A DNA stretch of 64,000 nt, taken from Escherichia phage vB_EcoM_KWBSE43-6. The notes under the pieces were generated by a model, which searched no databases, had not been told where the DNA came from, and saw only the letters and a program-made list of their open reading frames with translations. Each line of letters starts with the position of its first letter. The first letter of the stretch is position 1. The translations under genes and the position numbers were made by a program. Positions 45,407 to 60,774 of the stretch are shown one piece after another. The stretch lies in sequence record NC_048186.1. The stretch is one strand, 5' to 3'.

Positions 45407-46624
45407 ATGAAAGATAAACAGTCAGACATCCAATATTGCGGTGTCCGTGAAGATAAAATCAAATCAGCTGAACCAATTCTCAGTCCTTTCCATCGTAAGC
45501 TGTCCTATGATTGGATGGATGAACGTTACAAAATCCACGTGAGAAAGGACGTCCAGCGCCTTCCTTCTCCCTGGACAGAAAACGAGATACTACGGCAGGT
45601 CAAGTTCTGTAACGTCCGGAGAGAGCACGACAGGCAGTCTCAGCATCTTATCCGCAATATTGTCGAGAACAACAACCTGTCTCTGGCCGACAAGATGTTC
45701 AACTGCCTTCTGTTTCGTATGTTCAACATGTGGGATCCTATCGAACATGTTCTAGAAGGCCCGGTCTCCATCAATGATTTCCGTAATATCAATTTGGATC
45801 GAACTCGTGAACGGTTTGCGGACTTTGATAAAAAAGGCGGCGTGACATTCACCAATGCTTTCAACACAGGCGGTCTAAAGCAATGTTTGGCCTTCCCTGA
45901 ACTGGCAGTGACTGGAAAGCCCGCCAGCCCCAGCAAAATGATGGTGAAAGTCTTCGAGAACGAAGGACCGATGAAGTTTTATGTCGGTGAAATGAAATAC
46001 AAAGATGCCAAGTCTTTGGCGGAAGATAATCCAGGGTCAGTAACAATCGAAGGGTGGGAACCGCATATGGGGATGCGTGTTGTCCGGTTCCTGAAATCGT
46101 TTGTTACCCATAACCCTCATTTCTTCCATTCATTGTTGGGGTTCAATTCACCGCTATCTGTTTATGAAGAACTCCTTAACAAAGTTGAAGGCCTCGGACC
46201 ATTCTTGGCATATCAGGTTTGGGTTGACTTCACGTACAACCCGGATTATCCGTTTAGTGAAAACCATTTCACTATCGCCGGGCCGGGGTGCCGCGCCGGG
46301 ATTGATCTGTTGTTCCTGGATAAAGACGGGATGACACATGAAGAATGTATCTTCTGGCTGCGTGACAATCAGGATGATGTGTATCGGCAATATGGTTATG
46401 AACGTGATGCGTTTTGGTCAGCAGAAGAGCCGTATGACCGTTGTATGAACGTCATGCAGCTGGAAAACATGTTCTGCGAGCTGAGCAAATACACCCGTTG
46501 TGTTGAGGCTGTCATGCGCGGCGAGAAACCTCGAGGCAAGGTTGGATACAATGGCGGGGAAGTGTATACCGCTCCTAAGACCCAAGTCCGCTCTATCAAC
46601 CTCCTAGAAAGGATGAAGAAATGA
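45407..46624 (+). CDS. hypothetical protein, 405 aa
   Basis: ATG 45407 with GAGGA upstream; no motif recognised by eye. Confidence 0.6.
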   Translation: MKDKQSDIQYCGVREDKIKSAEPILSPFHRKLSYDWMDERYKIHVRKDVQRLPSPWTENEILRQVKFCNVRREHDRQSQHLIRNIVENNNLSLADKMFNCLLFRMFNMWDPIEHVLEGPVSINDFRNINLDRTRERFADFDKKGGVTFTNAFNTGGLKQCLAFPELAVTGKPASPSKMMVKVFENEGPMKFYVGEMKYKDAKSLAEDNPGSVTIEGWEPHMGMRVVRFLKSFVTHNPHFFHSLLGFNSPLSVYEELLNKVEGLGPFLAYQVWVDFTYNPDYPFSENHFTIAGPGCRAGIDLLFLDKDGMTHEECIFWLRDNQDDVYRQYGYERDAFWSAEEPYDRCMNVMQLENMFCELSKYTRCVEAVMRGEKPRGKVGYNGGEVYTAPKTQVRSINLLERMKK

Positions 46625-52492: not shown

Positions 52493-52816
52493 ATGTCTAA
52501 GAATGTGTCTTATATCGATGTCATGCGCTTCCTTGTCCAGTATGCAAGTGACAATCTGAATATGGAACTGTGGCGTGAGAAGAAACACTCCGTAACAATA
52601 CAATCCGCGATTGACAAAATCGAAGATCAGCTGGAATCCCTGGCTCCTCTGCGCGTCAAAGAACATCTGGGTGGCGATGAACTTGACGCGATAGAGATCA
52701 TCATGGACCTGGAAGAAGAATATGATGTAGAGATCACGGATTATTGGGTCGGTTCTCATAAAGACGACCCAACCCTGGGTGAATTGGCAGAGCATGTGGT
52801 GCATCTTTTAAAATAA
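52493..52816 (+). CDS. acyl carrier protein-like protein lacking the phosphopantetheine-attachment serine, 107 aa
   Basis: EHLGGDELDAIEIIMDLEEEYDVEITD aligns with ACP [26 protein letters not shown]; canonical DSL is DEL. Confidence 0.65.
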   Translation: MSKNVSYIDVMRFLVQYASDNLNMELWREKKHSVTIQSAIDKIEDQLESLAPLRVKEHLGGDELDAIEIIMDLEEEYDVEITDYWVGSHKDDPTLGELAEHVVHLLK

Positions 52817-52828
52817 TTTTGAAGTTGG

Positions 52829-52857
52829 CTTTACTTCTTCAATAAATGATTTAATAT
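52829..52857 (+). promoter_or_regulatory. early-promoter-like element (-35 CTTTAC, 17 bp, -10 TAATAT)
   Basis: Contains 17-mer TTTACTTCTTCAATAAA identical to 34893-34909. Confidence 0.35.
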
Positions 52858-52909
52858 TAATTTTGTAGGGCGGGAACGGCTCCCGCCTGATTGAAGAAGG
52901 CACTATATT

Positions 52910-53155
52910 ATGGAACAACTACTCCCCGAATCCGTATGCACATACGTGCGCCTCGCAGGTGAAGGCCACGATGTAGCAACTCAACTTACCGACCTCATTC
53001 TGAGCTACGGTATCAAGAAAGTTAATTCCGTTGACAACTCTGGTGTGAAAGGCGACTATATCGTTCTGAACCACCGCGGTCTGAAGACCAATCCGGTATT
53101 TTTCGTCGGCGTTCATAAGAAAGATGGCCAGGAAGTCGTGGAGATCGTATCGTGA
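52910..53155 (+). CDS. hypothetical protein, 81 aa
   Basis: ATG 52910 after GAAGAAGG and hairpin GGGCGGG...CCCGCC. Confidence 0.5.
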   Translation: MEQLLPESVCTYVRLAGEGHDVATQLTDLILSYGIKKVNSVDNSGVKGDYIVLNHRGLKTNPVFFVGVHKKDGQEVVEIVS

Positions 53156-53388
53156 GTAATAAGAAAGTCGAAACCACGGTTGAAATTGAAAAGAATTGGG
53201 GTTTCCTGCGTGCTAAAGGTTTCCGCCGTGTGTATGCTGCGAAGGAAGTCTATGTCCAGCGTAAGGACGTTATCATTAGCAAGAAAGGTAAGTCCTGGGT
53301 GGCAGAAGAAGTAGACGAAGACGGCATCGTAGGCAAGATTAAGGCCAAGGCCGAAATCCTCTTCGCTCTTCTGAAGCAAATTAACTAA
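53152..53388 (+). CDS. hypothetical protein, 78 aa, basic
   Basis: GTG start overlapping upstream stop, GGAGA 7 nt upstream. Confidence 0.45.
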   Translation: MSNKKVETTVEIEKNWGFLRAKGFRRVYAAKEVYVQRKDVIISKKGKSWVAEEVDEDGIVGKIKAKAEILFALLKQIN

Positions 53389-53414
53389 AATCAATAACAC
53401 GGACGGGGTATGAT
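53386..53414 (+). promoter_or_regulatory. early-promoter-like element (-10 TATGAT in GGGGTATGAT context)
   Basis: ATCAATA-N8-GGGGTATGAT; overlaps hairpin GACGGGG...CCCCGTC so the two roles conflict. Confidence 0.3.
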
Positions 53415-53447
53415 TGCCCCGTCTATTTGAAATGCAGGAACTATACC

Positions 53448-53918
53448 ATGACCCGTATTAATGTCATTCCCGTTGAATCTCTGTGTGATCAGCATTTGCT
53501 CGCTGAATATACCGAACTGGCGCCTGTTGTCCTTAATGTTGTGAATGGAAAACGTCGCAATCTCAAAGGCGCTCCAAAACATTACAAACTCAACGAAGGT
53601 CATGTGTTATTTTTCCGGGACAAACTGATTTATCTGATTGAGCGCTATGACCAACTTGTCACTGAACTGATATCTCGCGGGTATACCGTGAATTATCCTT
53701 CTCTTCGAAATCAGATAACTCATGAGAACAAACAGGAACTCCGGATTTATCTAAATGATTATCAACCGACTCAAGCTGCAGTCCAAGAAAATGTGGAACG
53801 CATAGTCGAAAGGTTGAAGGGTATGGGCAAAATAACGTATAACAGAAAGCCCGTAGATCCTTCTTATATGGTTGGCGTCATGAAACAGAATTTCGAATTT
53901 GGTGAGGTGGCATTATGA
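53448..53918 (+). CDS. denV: endonuclease V (pyrimidine dimer DNA glycosylase) DenV
   Basis: MTRINVIPVESLCDQHLLAEYTELAPV...GHVLFFRDKL matches T4 DenV N-terminus. Confidence 0.8.
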   Translation: MTRINVIPVESLCDQHLLAEYTELAPVVLNVVNGKRRNLKGAPKHYKLNEGHVLFFRDKLIYLIERYDQLVTELISRGYTVNYPSLRNQITHENKQELRIYLNDYQPTQAAVQENVERIVERLKGMGKITYNRKPVDPSYMVGVMKQNFEFGEVAL

Positions 53919-54223
53919 CAGATTTTATAGTCCCTCCAGCCTCATTCCTTCGCGTGAAAAATGAAGTGAAGGAAATCACGGGCTGTACTCACAAAGAATC
54001 TACGACTATCACCATGATGCTGGAAGCAAAAATGTTGGTAGATTCAGAGGATACAAAAGCGGCACTGAATTCTCTGTTGGCTCTTATTATCCGAGCGTAC
54101 CGAATCCCTGCTATTTCAGATGCGGACGATTTGGTTAAACTCCTCAACACTGGAGGGAAAGAATATGATTCCCTCCGCATCTTTATGACCGGTATACAAG
54201 AAGGTGGTTGGTATGAATCTTAA
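53915..54223 (+). CDS. hypothetical protein, 102 aa
   Basis: ATGA overlap with denV stop. Confidence 0.5.
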   Translation: MTDFIVPPASFLRVKNEVKEITGCTHKESTTITMMLEAKMLVDSEDTKAALNSLLALIIRAYRIPAISDADDLVKLLNTGGKEYDSLRIFMTGIQEGGWYES

Positions 54224-54389
54224 TTGGGAATTAATGGGTTGGATCCTTTGCTCCATTTTTGGCGTATTGGGTATTCTGTGGATTATTGTTGGTATCTGGT
54301 TCTATCGGGTTATTACACAATATGAAGCGCGTAAAGCGGAGCGCCAGGTACGCCAGGAAGAAATTCGCAATCGCCGGGAGAACTGGTGA
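54213..54389 (+). CDS. small membrane protein, 58 aa
   Basis: ATG 54213; hydrophobic helix WILCSIFGVLGILWIIVGIWFY then basic tail. Confidence 0.4.
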   Translation: MNLNWELMGWILCSIFGVLGILWIIVGIWFYRVITQYEARKAERQVRQEEIRNRRENW

Positions 54390-54502
54390 TGGAAGAAAAT
54401 ATCTGGCATGTCATCGGCGGCAATCTGTTGGGTATTCTGATCGTCTGGTTCTGTTATTGGTTCGGTGGCAAGCTGGCTAAATTTTTCCACGGACGTGACT
54501 AA
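54389..54502 (+). CDS. small membrane protein, 37 aa
   Basis: ATG overlapping upstream stop; single hydrophobic helix; not in ORF track. Confidence 0.25.
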   Translation: MEENIWHVIGGNLLGILIVWFCYWFGGKLAKFFHGRD

Positions 54503-54534
54503 CTAAGGGATAACTCCATATCCCGAGGTGTGCC

Positions 54535-54984
54535 ATGTTCTTGACTTCCTTTATCGACTGGTTGAATATCATCAACGGCCTGAGGATTCCTGTGGGAAAC
54601 CTCGGGCTTTCTCGTTCTTCTATGCCACAAATTGACGCTGATAAACAGCAAGACTTCCATGATTATCTGGAGGCGAATGGCGTGACCATAGATGCATCTC
54701 AAGTCCCGATCCGAACATTGCGGCTGACTCAGAACGAGATCAACAAAATGAAGGTCTGGAAGATCATGAAGCAGATCAGGAACAAGAAGCCGATGGGCCG
54801 GGTTTGGGTATCTTCAGACAATTACGTCGTGGATGGTTCCCATCGGTTTGTGGCCGCTCTGAATATGGACGGCAAGCAACGAATGAAGGTTTACAAAGTA
54901 GATTTGCCTGCCATGGAATTTGTCAAATTAGCTCGAAAATTCAATGGGGTGCGTTATCGTACTGTTTCTGATGCACGTTTCTGA
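54535..54984 (+). CDS. ParB/sulfiredoxin-like nuclease domain protein, 149 aa
   Basis: IRTLRLTQNEI and VVDGSHRFVAA resemble ParB N-terminal domain motifs (DGHHR-type). Confidence 0.5.
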   Translation: MFLTSFIDWLNIINGLRIPVGNLGLSRSSMPQIDADKQQDFHDYLEANGVTIDASQVPIRTLRLTQNEINKMKVWKIMKQIRNKKPMGRVWVSSDNYVVDGSHRFVAALNMDGKQRMKVYKVDLPAMEFVKLARKFNGVRYRTVSDARF

Positions 54985-55005
54985 ATAAAGAATATTATTG
55001 AAATC

Positions 55006-55035
55006 CTTTACTCAATAAACCTTCCGAACTACTAT
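55006..55035 (+). promoter_or_regulatory. early-promoter-like element (-35 CTTTAC, 18 bp, -10 TACTAT)
   Basis: CTTTAC followed by TCAATAAAC; 28 nt upstream of ATG 55063. Confidence 0.35.
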
Positions 55036-55062
55036 TTCCTCAATGAACAAGAGGGAATCACC

Positions 55063-55749
55063 ATGAAACGTTTAATCCTTGGGGTGCTGCTGGCTGGGCT
55101 GGCGCTCCCCGCCGCTGCCAAACTGAACTCTACAGGTGAGAAACTGTGGGGAGATCTTTCTTACTGTGCTGGATGGTCTCAGGCTGTCGCCATAGACAAG
55201 ACTGGTTCTATCGAGAACTTTTCTGAATTGTGGAACACAGGCAACGTATCTGACGCTGTTGTCAACGCCGGAATTGAATTTAATCGATACAAACAAGGAG
55301 CCTATAATCTCAAAGGCTATCTGAATGACGATAAATTCAACAAAGGTGGGATGGATGCCTCAGATTTGATCATGACCGGGCGTATGGGGACGGCAGGGAG
55401 GATTCAGGTTAGACAATGCCGTTCGCTTCCCATCCCGGCGCTTCAGAAAGGTGTCAACATCGGGCGTCGCCATCTTGATCTCATTAATGATGGGAACCAG
55501 TGCGTCAAAGTATTTGAATACAGTGCCGATCAGATCAATGATCCTAAATTAAAGAAAGAATGGCGGACTCGTGCTCTTGGGCTTCGGGCCTGGTTGGTAG
55601 AGAATGACCATTATTACCAGGACAGGGTTGATTCAGGCCTCAAAGATTTATCGACCAACTTGTCTGTAAATCTGGATGACCCAAGACTTTCCCGGGAACT
55701 TCAACAGACACGTATTGATTGTGACAACATGATGAAGGAGAACGAATGA
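55063..55749 (+). CDS. secreted / periplasmic protein, 228 aa
   Basis: Signal peptide MKRLILGVLLAGLALPAAA. Confidence 0.6.
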   Translation: MKRLILGVLLAGLALPAAAKLNSTGEKLWGDLSYCAGWSQAVAIDKTGSIENFSELWNTGNVSDAVVNAGIEFNRYKQGAYNLKGYLNDDKFNKGGMDASDLIMTGRMGTAGRIQVRQCRSLPIPALQKGVNIGRRHLDLINDGNQCVKVFEYSADQINDPKLKKEWRTRALGLRAWLVENDHYYQDRVDSGLKDLSTNLSVNLDDPRLSRELQQTRIDCDNMMKENE

Positions 55750-56093
55750 TGCGTGCGAAAAAGTCGACTATCATTATCGTCTACCTGATTTTGGTCTCTG
55801 TCTTTGGTTTATGGGCAAACCATGCATTGGCGGTCCCGGCCAACAATCTGAACAAATGTGCTGCATGGTTGTCTACTTATCAACAATTTCATCCTGACGA
55901 TAAAGATACTTCCATTTTGCTTTCCGATTTTGAAGGTGAAATGAAACGTTTGGACCAGTACAGTACTGACCAGATTGAGAATGCTCTGGATTTACCGATG
56001 ATGGATTCCGCAGCAGATAACAGTCACCAAACTGCCGTAGACCTGTCATATTGCCGTGAGATTGCGATTAACTTTACCCGTAATCAAAAATAA
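55746..56093 (+). CDS. secreted or membrane-anchored protein, 115 aa
   Basis: ATGA overlap; N-terminal KKSTIIIVYLILVSVFGLWANHALA signal/anchor. Confidence 0.55.
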   Translation: MMRAKKSTIIIVYLILVSVFGLWANHALAVPANNLNKCAAWLSTYQQFHPDDKDTSILLSDFEGEMKRLDQYSTDQIENALDLPMMDSAADNSHQTAVDLSYCREIAINFTRNQK

Positions 56094-57894: not shown

Positions 57895-58221
57895 ATGAGC
57901 AGCCGTATTTTTGATCTAAAATTCCGCGTTTGGCACGTTCCTCAGGTGCCGGGGAAAATGTTTACAGTTGAAGTCCCGACGTATGCTGAAGCTGAACGTT
58001 TGAAATCGTCGCTGGCTGATTATGATCTGTTCCAGTATGAGAACAACATCAAACCCGATTATTGCAATGCCAGCGGTATTCAGATTTATCAACACGACCT
58101 ATGTGACGCCGAGTTGATCGAAATGGGCCTTGAAGATCGTTGGGTGGATATCGAGGATGACCAAGATCTACAGGATTATCTGGATCATATTCGTTCTACT
58201 GGTTGGGAAATAAAATCATGA
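57895..58221 (+). CDS. hypothetical protein, 108 aa, acidic
   Basis: ATG 57895 after AGAGG. Confidence 0.5.
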   Translation: MSSRIFDLKFRVWHVPQVPGKMFTVEVPTYAEAERLKSSLADYDLFQYENNIKPDYCNASGIQIYQHDLCDAELIEMGLEDRWVDIEDDQDLQDYLDHIRSTGWEIKS

Positions 58222-58532
58222 CCATGATCAGTTCTTATATCGTTCAAAAAGGTGATACCCTTATGGGGATCTGTATGAAATTTTATTCAGATCCCTATAT
58301 GTATTCAGATATAGCGAAGTACAACAATATCATTGATCCGAACAAAATTTGCGTCGGCCAGCTGATTAAATTCCCCCGGCCTGTCAATGACCCACAAACA
58401 GTCGTTATCCCGGTAGAACCCACTCAGAAATGTTTGGATGCTATTGCAGGCTTATTCCAGGAAGGATTTTGTGATGGTCGTATAGAAAGAGATATTTATG
58501 CCGTCATAGTGAGTTCGGCTCTGAACCAATAA
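58218..58532 (+). CDS. LysM domain protein, 104 aa
   Basis: YIVQKGDTLMGICMKFYSDPYMYSDIAKYNNIIDPNKICVGQLIKFP fits LysM consensus. Confidence 0.6.
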   Translation: MTMISSYIVQKGDTLMGICMKFYSDPYMYSDIAKYNNIIDPNKICVGQLIKFPRPVNDPQTVVIPVEPTQKCLDAIAGLFQEGFCDGRIERDIYAVIVSSALNQ

Positions 58533-59052: not shown

Positions 59053-60774
59053 GTGACAGCATTTAACCAGCATGCCAAAGCGCTGGATACTCTTCGCAGA
59101 GAAATACCTATAGAAGAAATCCAGAAATTGGCCGAACAATATTTTCCATATGACCACGCCAACCCCGGCCAAATGGAATGTATTGTTGAAGCCATAGATG
59201 CGTTGGCCAATAAGAAATTCAAACACGTGATTATCGAAGCTCCTACCGGAGTCGGTAAATCCCTCATCGGCACAACTATCCATCAGGTGTTGCGCCATCT
59301 TGTGCTTGAAGCAAACCCTTATGGCCAATTCCGTACATCCATTTCCACGCCGACCAAAGGTCTACAAGATCAATATGCGGCTGAAAAAGCTGTTGCTATC
59401 GATATCCTGAAAGGCAAGAAGAATTATCGCTGCCATATGCATCCGGATATCTATTACAACGCAGTGCAATGCCGTATCGCTTGCCGGGATGGGCATTGTA
59501 GTAAGAGGCGTTGCCCCTATGTCCAGGCCCGTAATCTCTGGACCAACATCTCTTCATTACGCTGCACAAACGCAGCCATGATGATAGAAATGTGCACCAC
59601 CATTTGTATGAAGCCAGAAAACCGGGCCGACATGCTTATTTTGGATGAGTGCCATAAAATGCCCTCTACACTCCTAGACCATACGATCATGGAATACAAT
59701 ACGAAGGTATTGGAAGGACTGAGATCGTTGCCTCAGGGGAAGGATATCGTCCAGGCAGTGGTTGAGATCGTTTCCCATTGCAAAGACTATGAATTGGGCA
59801 AGCTGTATTCCCTTGATGGTTATCTGTTCGACCGTTTTGTAGACTTGTTAGGAAAGGTGGAAGCCATTTTAACAGAACTGCATGAACTCGTCGAAGATGA
59901 CCGCCTGACCGAAGCCCAGGTAATGAAGCTGGCCGATATTATCGACATCCTCCACAACCTATCTGACTATTGTGGTATCATGTCACAGACCCAGGCGAGT
60001 ACATTCATTGTACAGGAGAAAGGAGAAGAATTCATCCGCTTCAAACCTGTTATGGCATCGGATGTGTCTGAATTCGGGCTTTTCCGCAAAGCCGATTATC
60101 ACGTACATATGTCTGCAACCATCTGTGGAATTGATGCGTATGCTCGCTCCTTGGGTATTCGTCCTGGGCAGTACCATAAGATACAGATAGGAAACCCAAT
60201 CCCGATTGAGAATCGCAAAGTCAATTACATGCCGGTTATGAAAATGACCAACAATATGGGTGACTATGAGATGCGTCAGCTGGCCGGGTTTGTTGACGAG
60301 ATCATACAATTCCATCAAGGCCAGTCTGGCATCATTCATACGGTGAGTTATGACCGGGCGCTGGCGATACAGAAGTTCAGCAAATATCGGAACATCATCC
60401 ACGTACCCAGGACCCGTAAGGCTCTGATGGAACTGATGGATAATGCTTTCCGTACGAAGACGCCGTGCATCATCGCCAGCCCGGCTATGGAAGAAGGATA
60501 TGACTTCAAAGGGGATTATAGTCGTTTCCAGATTCTTATCAAGGTGCCATATGATTACCTTGGTGACCCATTAGTTGCGCATATCAACTCTGTGGATCCA
60601 TCGGCGTATTTCCGGAATGCCATACTGCGTATCATACAAATGTGTGGGCGTTCGGTCAGGGGCGTGAACGACTGGGCCGCGACATACATCCTGGATTCTT
60701 CCTTTGAATCCTTGATGATGCGCAACCCAGAGTTCTTTCCAACTTGGTTTACCGAGGCAGTATTTGAAGTTTAA
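59053..60774 (+). CDS. DinG/Rad3(XPD)-family helicase, 573 aa
   Basis: GTG start with AAAGGAGA SD; Walker A EAPTGVGKSL, DECH box, Cys cluster CRIACRDGHCSKRRCPY. Confidence 0.8.
   Translation: MTAFNQHAKALDTLRREIPIEEIQKLAEQYFPYDHANPGQMECIVEAIDALANKKFKHVIIEAPTGVGKSLIGTTIHQVLRHLVLEANPYGQFRTSISTPTKGLQDQYAAEKAVAIDILKGKKNYRCHMHPDIYYNAVQCRIACRDGHCSKRRCPYVQARNLWTNISSLRCTNAAMMIEMCTTICMKPENRADMLILDECHKMPSTLLDHTIMEYNTKVLEGLRSLPQGKDIVQAVVEIVSHCKDYELGKLYSLDGYLFDRFVDLLGKVEAILTELHELVEDDRLTEAQVMKLADIIDILHNLSDYCGIMSQTQASTFIVQEKGEEFIRFKPVMASDVSEFGLFRKADYHVHMSATICGIDAYARSLGIRPGQYHKIQIGNPIPIENRKVNYMPVMKMTNNMGDYEMRQLAGFVDEIIQFHQGQSGIIHTVSYDRALAIQKFSKYRNIIHVPRTRKALMELMDNAFRTKTPCIIASPAMEEGYDFKGDYSRFQILIKVPYDYLGDPLVAHINSVDPSAYFRNAILRIIQMCGRSVRGVNDWAATYILDSSFESLMMRNPEFFPTWFTEAVFEV

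What the first reader, a model, noticed from the sequence alone, without database searches (positions are those of the whole stretch)
53448..54984. DenV followed by small membrane proteins and a ParB-like nuclease domain protein
A clear DenV homolog is followed by a 102-aa unknown, two very small single-helix membrane proteins (58 and 37 aa, overlapping start/stop) and a 149-aa protein with a ParB/sulfiredoxin-type motif (VVDGSHRFVAA). The small ParB-like protein may be a nuclease or NTP-binding regulator rather than a partition protein. The membrane peptides are candidates for lysis-inhibition or exclusion functions.
Basis: inference. Interest (0 to 1): 0.4.

Follow-up and report, generated by a model that had tools for sequence, protein, structure and literature searches.

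The report
DenV, small genes, virion ParB-like protein
A stretch of a Vi1-like (Ackermannviridae) phage genome carries an ordinary UV-repair gene, three small accessory genes, and a conserved 149-residue protein with a ParB/sulfiredoxin fold whose close relatives were found in purified phage particles and whose function is untested.

Summary
Five co-directional genes lie at 53448-54984: denV, a 102-aa acidic protein, two single-helix membrane proteins (58 and 37 aa, overlapping start/stop codons), and a 149-aa protein carrying VVDGSHRFVAA.

DenV is a clear T4 endonuclease V homologue.

- Orthologues were detected by mass spectrometry in purified virions of LIMEstone1 and Sajous1.
- The domain belongs to a large family without a Pfam model (about 4,900 clusters). 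It is often embedded in giant multi-domain phage proteins.
- The gene is a conserved backbone gene between regA and a DinG-type helicase. denV and the small genes sit in a variable island and come and go between relatives.

My best reading is a basic, nucleotide-binding ParB/Srx enzyme packaged with the DNA. Its substrate is unknown. The functions of the membrane peptides cannot be decided here. The five genes show no sign of forming one functional system. Interest is moderate.

The parts
53402..53423 (+). G+C-rich hairpin (GACGGGG-tatgatt-GCCCCGTC) just upstream of denV. It is the likely terminator of the upstream transcription unit.
   Evidence: Terminator-like site, where it is listed on the - strand of this palindromic stem. 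LIMEstone1 has an annotated 'putative factor-independent terminator' at the equivalent position.
53448..53918 (+). denV, a pyrimidine-dimer DNA glycosylase/AP lyase (T4 endonuclease V family), 156 aa.
   Evidence: Pfam PF03013 E=5.6e-13, 49.5 bits. phrog_1183 E=2.6e-44. PDB 2END E=5.3e-15 with Thr2, Arg3 and Glu23 aligned. 90-92% protein identity to annotated DenV of Vi01, EspM4VN and LIMEstone1.
53915..54223 (+). orf102, an acidic (pI 4.9), predicted all-helical protein of unknown function. It belongs to a fast-evolving family across Ackermannviridae with a conserved DDLxKLLNT motif.
   Evidence: phrog_4458 E=4.8e-32. Positional homologues in Vi01 (92 aa), EspM4VN (95 aa), Sajous1 (87 aa), Magnus (99 aa) and LIMEstone1 (84 aa). 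The AF2 model has low confidence (pLDDT 60).
54213..54389 (+). orf58, a single-pass membrane protein with a short N-terminus, one transmembrane helix and an Arg/Glu-rich C-terminal tail. The charge distribution suggests N-out/C-in topology.
   Evidence: phrog_14464 'membrane protein' E=3e-24. Conserved in phi1_146041, Magnus and IME250 with dN/dS 0.11-0.17. 52-aa proteins of the same architecture occupy this position in EspM4VN and Sajous1, but not in Vi01.
54389..54502 (+). orf37, a single-pass membrane peptide translationally coupled to orf58 (TGATG overlap).
   Evidence: phrog_23957 E=7e-29. Present in phi1_146041, Magnus and IME250 with dN/dS 0.035-0.14. Not annotated at this position in Vi01, EspM4VN, Sajous1 or LIMEstone1.
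54535..54984 (+). orf149, a basic (pI 10.1) single-domain ParB/sulfiredoxin-fold protein. Orthologues are virion-associated. The family signature is RxxMPQ ... TQxE/DxNxxK ... SxDxYxxDG(H/S)HRxxA.

Best explanation
The interval is not one system. It joins an accessory-gene island to one conserved backbone gene in an Ackermannviridae phage. The window's 149-aa protein is 100% identical to Escherichia phage vB_EcoM_KWBSE43-6 gp146.

(1) denV encodes a T4-endonuclease-V-type pyrimidine-dimer glycosylase that repairs UV damage in phage DNA. It is an optional gene in this family.

(2) orf102, orf58 and orf37 are small, fast-evolving accessory genes that are translationally coupled to denV. The two membrane peptides are real genes, but they are dispensable and restricted to certain lineages.

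(3) orf149 is a core gene that lies between regA and a DinG-type helicase across a wide group of T4-related phages. It encodes a basic single-domain ParB/Srx-fold protein with an intact DG(S/H)HR motif, which I take (inferred) to form the superfamily's phosphate-binding pocket. My reading is that it binds a nucleoside triphosphate and either hydrolyses it or transfers its phosphate, as other members of the superfamily do. I also read it as associating with phage DNA, being packaged into the particle, and entering the cell with the genome to act early in infection.

Shown here: the fold, the conserved residues, the family's size and fusions, and the synteny. Taken from published proteomes: detection of orthologues in virion preparations. 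Inferred: nucleotide binding or catalysis, DNA association, ejection into the host, and any target.
For: denV:
- establish the homology.

Accessory character of denV and the small genes:
- The closest relatives (Klebsiella phages, 94-99% identical in the flanks) carry a 122-aa secreted-protein gene exactly in place of denV. The breakpoints are window 53432 and 53910.
- EspM4VN and LIMEstone1 carry both genes in tandem.
- No Klebsiella or Serratia phage record contains denV DNA.
- Vi01 has only one ORF between denV and the ParB-like gene.

Small genes are real:
- dN/dS is well below 1 and each has a PHROG family.

orf149 fold:

orf149 conservation:
- dN/dS is about 0.05.
- Q66, D100, G101 and H103 are invariant, and R104 is 91% conserved, across 150 diverse representatives.

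Virion association:
- LIMEstone1: 'unknown structural protein', 17.31 kDa, 35.6% coverage, 5 unique peptides (PMC3296691). It is matched to the orthologue by position and by mass.
- Sajous1 gp192: 11 spectra from CsCl-purified particles (PMC10892097; position).
- The LIMEstone paper states that all its unknown structural proteins have particle-associated counterparts in ViI.

The same domain occurs inside giant multi-domain proteins:
- In Ralstonia phage Gervaise it lies in a protein of about 4,500 aa (from the CDS coordinates). The 3,187 residues scanned carry SLT transglycosylase, Eco57I-type methylase and helicase domains.
- In Pseudomonas phage Itty13 gp03 it is joined to PBECR1.
- Other members are fused to Zeta-toxin-type kinase, AAA ATPase or cytidylyltransferase domains.
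- 87 of the 150 best representatives are longer than 180 aa.
- This matches the 'polyvalent protein' pattern of packaged early effectors described in PMC5512222.

Backbone position:
-.
Against: - No biochemical or genetic data exist for any member of the family. Nucleotide binding, catalysis and ejection are all inferred.
- The virion preparations also contained a few clearly non-structural proteins: DNA ligase, gp44 and PhoH at under 5% coverage in LIMEstone1, and RegB and SSB in Sajous1. A basic DNA-binding protein could therefore co-purify without being a designed cargo.
- The gene sits among replication genes, not structural genes, in every lineage examined.
- No late promoter is recognisable upstream. 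T4's TATAAATA occurs only once in the window, elsewhere.
- The residue that aligns with the catalytic Glu30 of free serine kinase is an invariant Gln. A kinase mechanism of that exact type is therefore unlikely.
Confidence: 0.55

Rival explanations
1. orf149 is a replication or repair accessory factor. In this reading the ParB/Srx protein binds DNA and works in the infected cell with the neighbouring DinG-type helicase and replication proteins, for example as an NTP-gated DNA clamp or a nicking enzyme. Its presence in virion preparations would be incidental carry-over on packaged DNA.
For: - In Vibrio phage K444 and in two metagenomic contigs the gene lies directly between the clamp-loader/RegA genes and the helicase.
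- In the window the same order is kept, with insertions.
- PhiW-14 gp75 lies five genes downstream of the orthologous helicase, gp70.
- The protein is basic, pI 10.1.
- ParB, Noc and KorB are NTP-gated DNA clamps and appear among the structural matches.
Against: - The protein has no HTH or other recognisable DNA-binding domain. It consists of the ParB/Srx core plus a family-specific N-terminal extension.
- Peptide recovery was 35.6% coverage in LIMEstone1 and 11 spectra in Sajous1. This is far above that of bona fide replication proteins in the same preparations, which gave 1 peptide, under 5% coverage, or 1-5 spectra (PMC3296691, PMC10892097).
- In Ackermannviridae about 4 kb of unrelated genes separate it from the helicase.
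- The domain is also found in giant proteins with an SLT lytic transglycosylase domain.
Confidence: 0.22
2. orf149 is a ParB-type DNase, the first reader's 'nuclease' option. It would be a metal-dependent, sequence-non-specific nicking or degrading enzyme that attacks host or competitor DNA.
For: - Several ParB/Srx proteins are reported to have DNase or nicking activity, for example Osa and ParB-methylase fusions, as reviewed in PMC5512222.
- The pNOB8 ParB N-domain, deposited as 'ParB domain protein nuclease', is the top structural hit.
- Distant family members give weak matches to Pfam ParBc_2, 'putative ParB-like nuclease'.
Against: - The conserved residues (Q66, E/D68, D100, G101, H103, R104) are the motif positions I take (inferred) to form the superfamily's nucleotide-phosphate pocket, not a dedicated nuclease site.
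- The phage's own DNA would need protection. This is possible through thymidine hypermodification, but it was not tested.
- PMC5512222 itself argues that nucleotide sensing or hydrolysis is more likely than DNase activity for ParB modules in packaged multi-domain proteins.
Confidence: 0.13
3. orf58 and orf37 are lysis-timing or superinfection-exclusion peptides (holin, antiholin or exclusion).
For: - Both are single-pass membrane peptides. orf58 has a highly charged C-terminal tail, a feature typical of holins.
- The CBA120 paper (PMC3184105) notes that no holin had been identified in ViI-like phages although lysis inhibition is observed.
- A gene annotated as an Rz-like spanin lies about 1.3 kb downstream.
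Against: - The genes are not adjacent to a muralytic enzyme.
- An orf58-type gene is absent from Vi01, and orf37 is absent outside Taipeivirus-like phages, so neither can be the essential family holin.
- There are no hits in Pfam, NCBIfam or PADLOC.
- The PHROG category 'moron/host takeover' rests on no experiment.
Confidence: 0.2

Closest known systems
T4 endonuclease V (DenV; Pfam PF03013 Pyr_excise; PDB 2END, 1VAS)
   Same: - Homologous over residues 1-123 (E=5e-15).
- The N-terminal Thr2, Arg3 and Glu23 are conserved.
- The gene is annotated as DenV in about 100 Ackermannviridae genomes.
   Different: - Arg22 and Arg26 of T4 are Thr and Pro here.
- The C-terminus is about 18 residues longer. 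Its last residues differ from those of other Ackermannviridae DenV proteins.
- denV is absent from the closest Klebsiella-phage relatives.
DdrB-like ParB domains of phage 'polyvalent proteins' (Iyer et al. 2017, PMC5512222; Pfam PF18763)
   Same: - Both are ParB/Srx-fold domains encoded by phages.
- Both occur in solo form and inside giant multi-domain proteins.
- The prototype is packaged in the phage head, and neither has a ParA partner.
   Different: - There is no detectable sequence relationship. The window protein has no PF18763 hit; only 1 of 23 relatives reaches E=0.073.
- hhalign of the family profile against P1 DdrB gives probability 0.1%.
- This family has its own N-terminal RxxMPQ extension.
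- In myoviruses its genes sit among replication genes rather than late structural genes.
Free serine kinase SerK / SbnI and P. furiosus 1VK1 (Pfam PF08857 ParBc_2)
   Same: - This is the closest solved relative by sequence profile, though below threshold (E 0.09-0.2). It shares the D-x-Y-x-x-D-G-H-H-R-W block.
- Some distant family members give weak ParBc_2 hits.
   Different: - The matches are below threshold.
- The position of SerK's Glu30 holds an invariant Gln here. Glu30 is the residue mutated in the PDB entries titled E30A and E30Q.
- The solved SerK/SbnI-type chains are about 240-250 residues and the match covers only the shared N-terminal core; orf149 has no counterpart to the rest.
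- orf149 has an extra N-terminal segment.
Chromosome and plasmid ParB, Noc and KorB CTP-dependent DNA clamps; also the ParB activators of phage thymine dioxygenases (PMC13229309)
   Same: - The N-terminal nucleotide-binding fold is the same.
- The phage dioxygenase activators show that phage ParB homologues can have non-partition roles.
   Different: - orf149 has no HTH DNA-binding domain and no C-terminal dimerisation domain.
- There is no ParA or parS in the context.
- No gene near orf149 in the part of the window examined was identified as a 5-methylpyrimidine dioxygenase. Ackermannviridae are described as making 5-hmdU-derived bases by a different route (PMC11721090, PMC5889632).

Membership tests
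T4 endonuclease V / pyrimidine dimer glycosylase (PF03013) | Significant match to the family model across the catalytic N-terminal region | tested here: met
   Pfam 49.5 bits against a cutoff of 23. phrog_1183 E=2.6e-44. PDB 2END E=5.3e-15 over residues 1-123.
T4 endonuclease V / pyrimidine dimer glycosylase (PF03013) | N-terminal Thr2 (alpha-amino nucleophile) and Glu23. Their catalytic roles are established knowledge of T4 endoV. | tested here: met
   MTRIN... and AEYtEL align with T4 MTRIN... and AEYRELP.
T4 endonuclease V / pyrimidine dimer glycosylase (PF03013) | DNA-contact arginines Arg22 and Arg26 of T4 | tested here: not met
   These positions are Thr22 and Pro26 in the window protein. 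Vi01 has Lys22. The consequence for activity is unknown.
T4 endonuclease V / pyrimidine dimer glycosylase (PF03013) | Cyclobutane-dimer glycosylase/AP-lyase activity | not testable with these tools
   This needs an enzyme assay or a UV-survival test of a knockout.
ParB/sulfiredoxin (ParB/Srx) superfamily | The alpha/beta ParB/Srx core fold | tested here: met
ParB/sulfiredoxin (ParB/Srx) superfamily | Conserved Gly-x-x-Arg type phosphate-binding motif at the start of the core helix (GERRxR in ParB, GCHR in Srx, DGHHR in SerK) | tested here: met
   D100-G101-S102-H103-R104. D, G and H are invariant and R is 91% conserved in 150 diverse representatives.
ParB/sulfiredoxin (ParB/Srx) superfamily | Nucleotide binding, hydrolysis or phosphotransfer | not testable with these tools
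   This needs binding and activity assays.
Partition ParB (ParABS systems) | HTH DNA-binding domain, C-terminal dimerisation domain, ParA partner and parS sites | tested here: not met
   The protein is 149 aa and a single domain. It does not match the classical ParBc model PF02195. No flanking ORF in window 52493-56093 that was scanned against Pfam or PHROGs matched a ParA-type ATPase, and none is annotated in the equivalent regions of related phages. parS sites were not searched for.
DdrB-like ParB of polyvalent proteins (PF18763) | Sequence membership in the family model, or similarity to P1 DdrB | tested here: not met
   The window protein has no hit, and 1 of 23 relatives reaches only E=0.073. 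hhalign against P1 DdrB gives probability 0.1%.
Polyvalent-protein module (Iyer et al. 2017 concept) | The same domain recurs inside large multi-domain phage proteins alongside effector or enzyme domains | tested here: met
   Gervaise giant protein with SLT, Eco57I methylase and helicase domains; Itty13 gp03 with PBECR1. Fusions to Zeta-toxin kinase, AAA and cytidylyltransferase domains. 87 of 150 representatives are longer than 180 aa. The window protein itself is a solo form.
Polyvalent-protein module (Iyer et al. 2017 concept) | Packaged in the virion and delivered into the host | tested here: inconclusive
   Packaging is supported for orthologues by published mass spectrometry (PMC3296691, PMC10892097; mapping). 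Delivery has not been tested anywhere.
Free serine kinase SerK / SbnI (PF08857 ParBc_2) | Family-model match and the catalytic Glu (Glu30 of T. kodakarensis SerK) | tested here: not met
   Only sub-threshold matches, E 0.09-0.2, and no Pfam hit for the window protein. The aligned position is an invariant Gln66. orf149 (149 aa) matches only the N-terminal core of the roughly 240-residue SerK chains.
Holin/antiholin (for orf58 and orf37) | Small membrane protein with a charged C-terminus, encoded next to the endolysin and required for lysis | tested here: inconclusive
   The membrane helix and charged tail are present. The genes are not next to a muralytic gene, orf58 is absent from Vi01, and there is no family match. 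Function is not testable here.

The most novel reading that the evidence does not exclude
orf149 represents a very large family of ParB/Srx enzymes with no Pfam model and no characterised member that I could find (about 4,900 clusters at 50% identity). In this reading, phages package these enzymes with their DNA, either solo or as modules of giant injected proteins. The enzymes would use a nucleotide (NTP hydrolysis or phosphotransfer through the Q66 / D100-G-H-H-R104 pocket plus the family-specific RxxMPQ element) to act on the incoming genome or on a host target in the first moments of infection. That would make them a new class of ejected enzymatic effector. In Ackermannviridae it would be a core gene.
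Probability: 0.25. Interest if true: 0.65.

Novelty: new member of a known kind. Interest (0 to 1): 0.38.

Why it matters
DenV and the small accessory genes are ordinary. The ParB/Srx protein is the part worth attention, for four reasons:
- It is a core gene of a phage family that is widely isolated for therapy and biocontrol.
- It was detected in purified particles in two published studies, and a third phage (ViI) is reported to have a particle-associated counterpart.
- It belongs to a family of thousands of clusters that has no Pfam or NCBIfam model and no member I could find characterised experimentally.
- It recurs in the giant multi-domain proteins thought to be injected to counter host defences.

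Identifying its ligand and target would assign a function to a widespread phage domain. It would also show what Ackermannviridae deliver into cells besides DNA. The locus is in addition a clean example of gene-for-gene cassette variation (denV versus a secreted 122-aa protein) inside a variable region bounded by conserved replication genes.

Tried and rejected
- Sequence searches of orf149 found nothing significant. This covers Pfam, NCBIfam, PADLOC and PDB, using both the single sequence and a close-homologue profile. The top PDB 'hits' (von Willebrand factor, protein A) are chance matches.
- I tested a link to thymidine hypermodification and rejected it. The idea arose because homologues occur in PhiW-14 and ViI-like phages. 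The PNAS 2018 paper does not list the gene. PhiW-14 gp72 (aG/PT-PPlase1) is near gp75, but its window homologue lies 9 kb away. No partner gene is conserved next to orf149 across all the lineages compared.
- I considered the ParB-dependent thymine dioxygenase system (PMC13229309). Those ParBs keep a C-terminal dimerisation domain and pair with a dioxygenase. Neither feature was seen here.
- I tested membership of the DdrB-like ParB family with hhalign against P1 DdrB. The result was negative.
- Structure prediction of orf102 gave pLDDT 60 from a 4-sequence alignment. That is too poor for a fold search.
- Word-indexed homology searches for orf102 and orf58 returned only 3 and 5 relatives.
- The T4 late-promoter motif TATAAATA is not informative in this phage: there is 1 hit, elsewhere in the window. 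Sigma-70-like sites are no more frequent than chance.
- The AFDB50 fold library was unavailable.
- I considered recent horizontal acquisition of denV and judged it unlikely. Its DNA identity to Kuttervirus, Agtrevirus and related phages (76-81%) equals that of the flanking genes.
Full report
**What is there**

The window comes from an Ackermannviridae phage. Over 53000-56000, the closest records are Klebsiella Taipeivirus-like phages, 94-99% identical over 80-84% of the query. The 149-aa protein is 100% identical to gp146 of Escherichia phage vB_EcoM_KWBSE43-6.

Five co-directional genes occupy 53448-54984:
- denV, 53448-53918.
- orf102, 53915-54223, joined to denV by an ATGA overlap.
- orf58, 54213-54389, overlapping orf102 by 11 nt.
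- orf37, 54389-54502, overlapping orf58 by 1 nt.
- orf149, 54535-54984, after a 32-nt gap.

Each gene is preceded by a Shine-Dalgarno-like sequence. A G+C-rich hairpin lies just upstream at 53402-53423. LIMEstone1 has a terminator annotated at the same place.

**DenV**

- Pfam Pyr_excise scores 49.5 bits against a cutoff of 23. phrog_1183 gives E=2.6e-44.
- The protein aligns with T4 endonuclease V structures (2END, 1VAS) at E=5e-15 over residues 1-123.
- Thr2, Arg3 and Glu23 are conserved. T4 Arg22 and Arg26 are Thr and Pro here.
- It is 90-92% identical to the annotated DenV of Vi01, EspM4VN and LIMEstone1.

This is a known gene.

**An accessory island**

The nearest relatives match the window up to 53431 and again from 53911. 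In between they carry a 122-aa signal-peptide protein gene instead of denV. EspM4VN and LIMEstone1 carry both genes in tandem.

- denV DNA is found in 98 phage records. None is from Klebsiella or Serratia phages, and the best identity is 81%.
- That matches the divergence of the flanking genes, 76-79%.
- Differential loss from a two-gene ancestor is therefore the simplest account. Recent transfer is unlikely.

The genes downstream of denV also vary:
- orf102 has positional homologues of 84-99 aa across the family, sharing a DDLxKLLNT motif (phrog_4458). Its structure prediction was too poor to use (pLDDT 60).
- orf58-type single-pass peptides (52-58 aa, with a charged tail) occur in Taipeivirus, Agtrevirus and some Kuttervirus phages, but not in Vi01.
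- orf37 occurs only in Taipeivirus-like phages.
- Both small genes are under purifying selection, with dN/dS of 0.11-0.17 and 0.035-0.14. They are real genes but dispensable.
- No library gives either of them a function.

**The ParB-like protein: fold**

orf149 has no Pfam, NCBIfam, PADLOC or PDB sequence match. It shows only a weak PHROG ParB hit (E=1.4e-3) beside its own phrog_2859.

- An AlphaFold model built from 23 homologues has pLDDT 84.7 and pTM 0.80.
- The first 42 Foldseek PDB matches are all from the same superfamily.
- Foldseek against viral models finds many 'ParB/Sulfiredoxin domain' phage proteins.

The fold assignment therefore holds. The protein is a single domain of 149 aa with no HTH, no dimerisation domain and no ParA nearby. 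It is not a partition ParB.

**The ParB-like protein: family**

A full HMMER scan of 1.84 billion representatives found 4,946 proteins at E<=1e-3 and 2,440 at E<=1e-10. Among the best 150 representatives:
- 63 are solo proteins of 180 aa or fewer.
- 45 are 181-400 aa.
- 42 are longer than 400 aa, up to 2,359 aa, and some carry two copies of the domain.

Fusion partners include:
- SLT transglycosylase, Eco57I-type methylase and helicase domains in the giant protein of Ralstonia phage Gervaise, about 4,500 aa by its CDS coordinates.
- PBECR1 in Pseudomonas phage Itty13 gp03.
- Zeta-toxin-type kinase, AAA ATPase and cytidylyltransferase domains.

This is the architecture that Iyer et al. (PMC5512222) call polyvalent proteins, which they describe as packaged early effectors. 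The family is nevertheless distinct from their DdrB-like ParB domain. There is no PF18763 hit, and hhalign against P1 DdrB gives probability 0.1%.

The family-wide signature is R27-x-x-M-P-Q32, T-Q66-x-(E/D)-x-N-x-x-K73, and S93-x-D-x-Y-x-x-D100-G-(H/S)-H-R104-x-x-A107. Q66, D100, G101 and H103 are invariant.

A diverse profile reaches free serine kinase and 1VK1 only below threshold (E 0.09-0.2). It shares the DxYxxDGHHRW block with them. The invariant Gln aligns with the position that is mutated in the PDB entries titled E30Q and E30A.

**The ParB-like protein: virion association**

- In LIMEstone1 the syntenic orthologue is annotated 'unknown structural protein; confirmed structural protein'.
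- Table 2 of the paper lists a 17.31-kDa unknown structural protein with 35.6% coverage and 5 unique peptides (PMC3296691). The calculated mass of the orthologue is 17.30 kDa, and it shares 126 of 149 residues with the window protein. The paper and the GenBank record differ by one in ORF number.
- In Sajous1 the syntenic gp192 gave 11 spectra from CsCl-purified particles (PMC10892097).
- The LIMEstone paper also states that all its unknown structural proteins have particle-associated counterparts in ViI.
- Known replication proteins in the same preparations gave far fewer peptides.

**The ParB-like protein: genomic position**

The window keeps a conserved backbone order:
- clamp (41.8 kb), clamp loader (42.5-43.9 kb) and regA (44.1 kb);
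- about 10 kb of variable genes, including denV and the small ORFs;
- orf149;
- about 4 kb of other genes;
- a DinG-type helicase (59053-60774), RNase H and gp55.

In Vibrio phage K444 and two metagenomic contigs, the ParB-like gene sits directly next to the helicase. orf149 is therefore a core backbone gene, with dN/dS about 0.05. The genes upstream of it in the finding are island cargo.

**Interpretation**

The five genes are not one system.

- I rate highest a basic ParB/Srx nucleotide-binding enzyme that is packaged with the DNA and acts early in infection. The fold, the conserved pocket residues, the family's fusions and the synteny are shown here; detection in virions comes from published proteomes. 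Catalysis, DNA binding and ejection are inferred.
- The main rival is an intracellular replication or repair accessory factor whose virion signal is carry-over on DNA.
- A plain DNase role is a weaker rival.

**Novelty and score**

- DenV is already known.
- The ParB/Srx assignment already appears in UniProt names and in the Sajous1 paper.
- Virion association was published, but it had not been connected to the fold or to the wider family.

The item is a new, uncharacterised member of a known kind: phage ParB/Srx modules. It is of moderate interest because the family is so large and untested.

Noticed in passing
window 53432-53910, compared with L001 3433-3804: There is an exact gene-for-gene replacement. 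This phage has denV where its closest Klebsiella-phage relatives have a 122-aa signal-peptide protein gene. EspM4VN and LIMEstone1 carry both in tandem. The last residues of this DenV (…NFEFGEVAL) differ from the …SFQF end seen in other Ackermannviridae DenV proteins, which would fit a deletion that fused the gene ends.
   Followed up: yes
window 41800-62650: The conserved T4-like backbone runs clamp, gp44, gp62, regA, ParB-like, DinG-type helicase, RNase H, gp55. It is interrupted by two variable insertions of about 10 kb (44.4-54.5 kb) and about 4 kb (55.0-59.0 kb). In marine relatives (Vibrio phage K444, L013, L015) these genes are nearly contiguous.
   Followed up: partly
window 45542-45742: There is weak protein similarity (31% over 67 aa, E=9e-6) to PhiW-14 gp72. 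The 2018 PNAS paper lists gp72 as aG/PT-PPlase1 of the thymidine hypermodification pathway. This suggests that the hypermodification genes lie in this window.
   Followed up: partly
window 58203-58532: In related records the gene at this position is annotated 'endolysin'. It encodes only about 104-109 aa and looks like a LysM-type peptidoglycan-binding motif (…YIVQKGDTLMGICMKF…IDPNKICVGQLIKFP…), with no obvious catalytic domain. The annotation may be wrong. I read this by eye and did not scan it.
   Followed up: no
window 55063-56093: orf228 has a signal peptide but no lipobox Cys. It overlaps orf115, which carries an N-terminal membrane helix and is called 'Rz-like spanin' by PHROG 3843. No partner outer-membrane lipoprotein spanin was seen. 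The CBA120 paper notes that holin and lysin genes were unidentified in ViI-like phages.
   Followed up: no
window 52493-52816: A phage-encoded acyl carrier protein (Pfam PP-binding E=5e-6; phrog_4154) lies just downstream of a large vWA-domain protein. That vWA protein is a confirmed virion protein in LIMEstone1.
   Followed up: no
L011 3896-4345 (LIMEstone1) and PMC3296691 Table 2: The ORF numbers differ by one between the LIMEstone1 paper (ORF102, 17.31 kDa) and the GenBank/RefSeq record (ORF101). I matched them by calculated mass (17.30 kDa). The record's ORF102 is only 9.45 kDa.
   Followed up: yes
L003 2703-5615 (Pseudomonas phage Itty13 gp03): In the reverse-complemented locus table, the CDS strands were shown as '-' although the coding frame is on the + strand of the locus. 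The antisense 'ORF' is a high-GC artefact. Strand columns of reversed loci should be read with care.
   Followed up: yes
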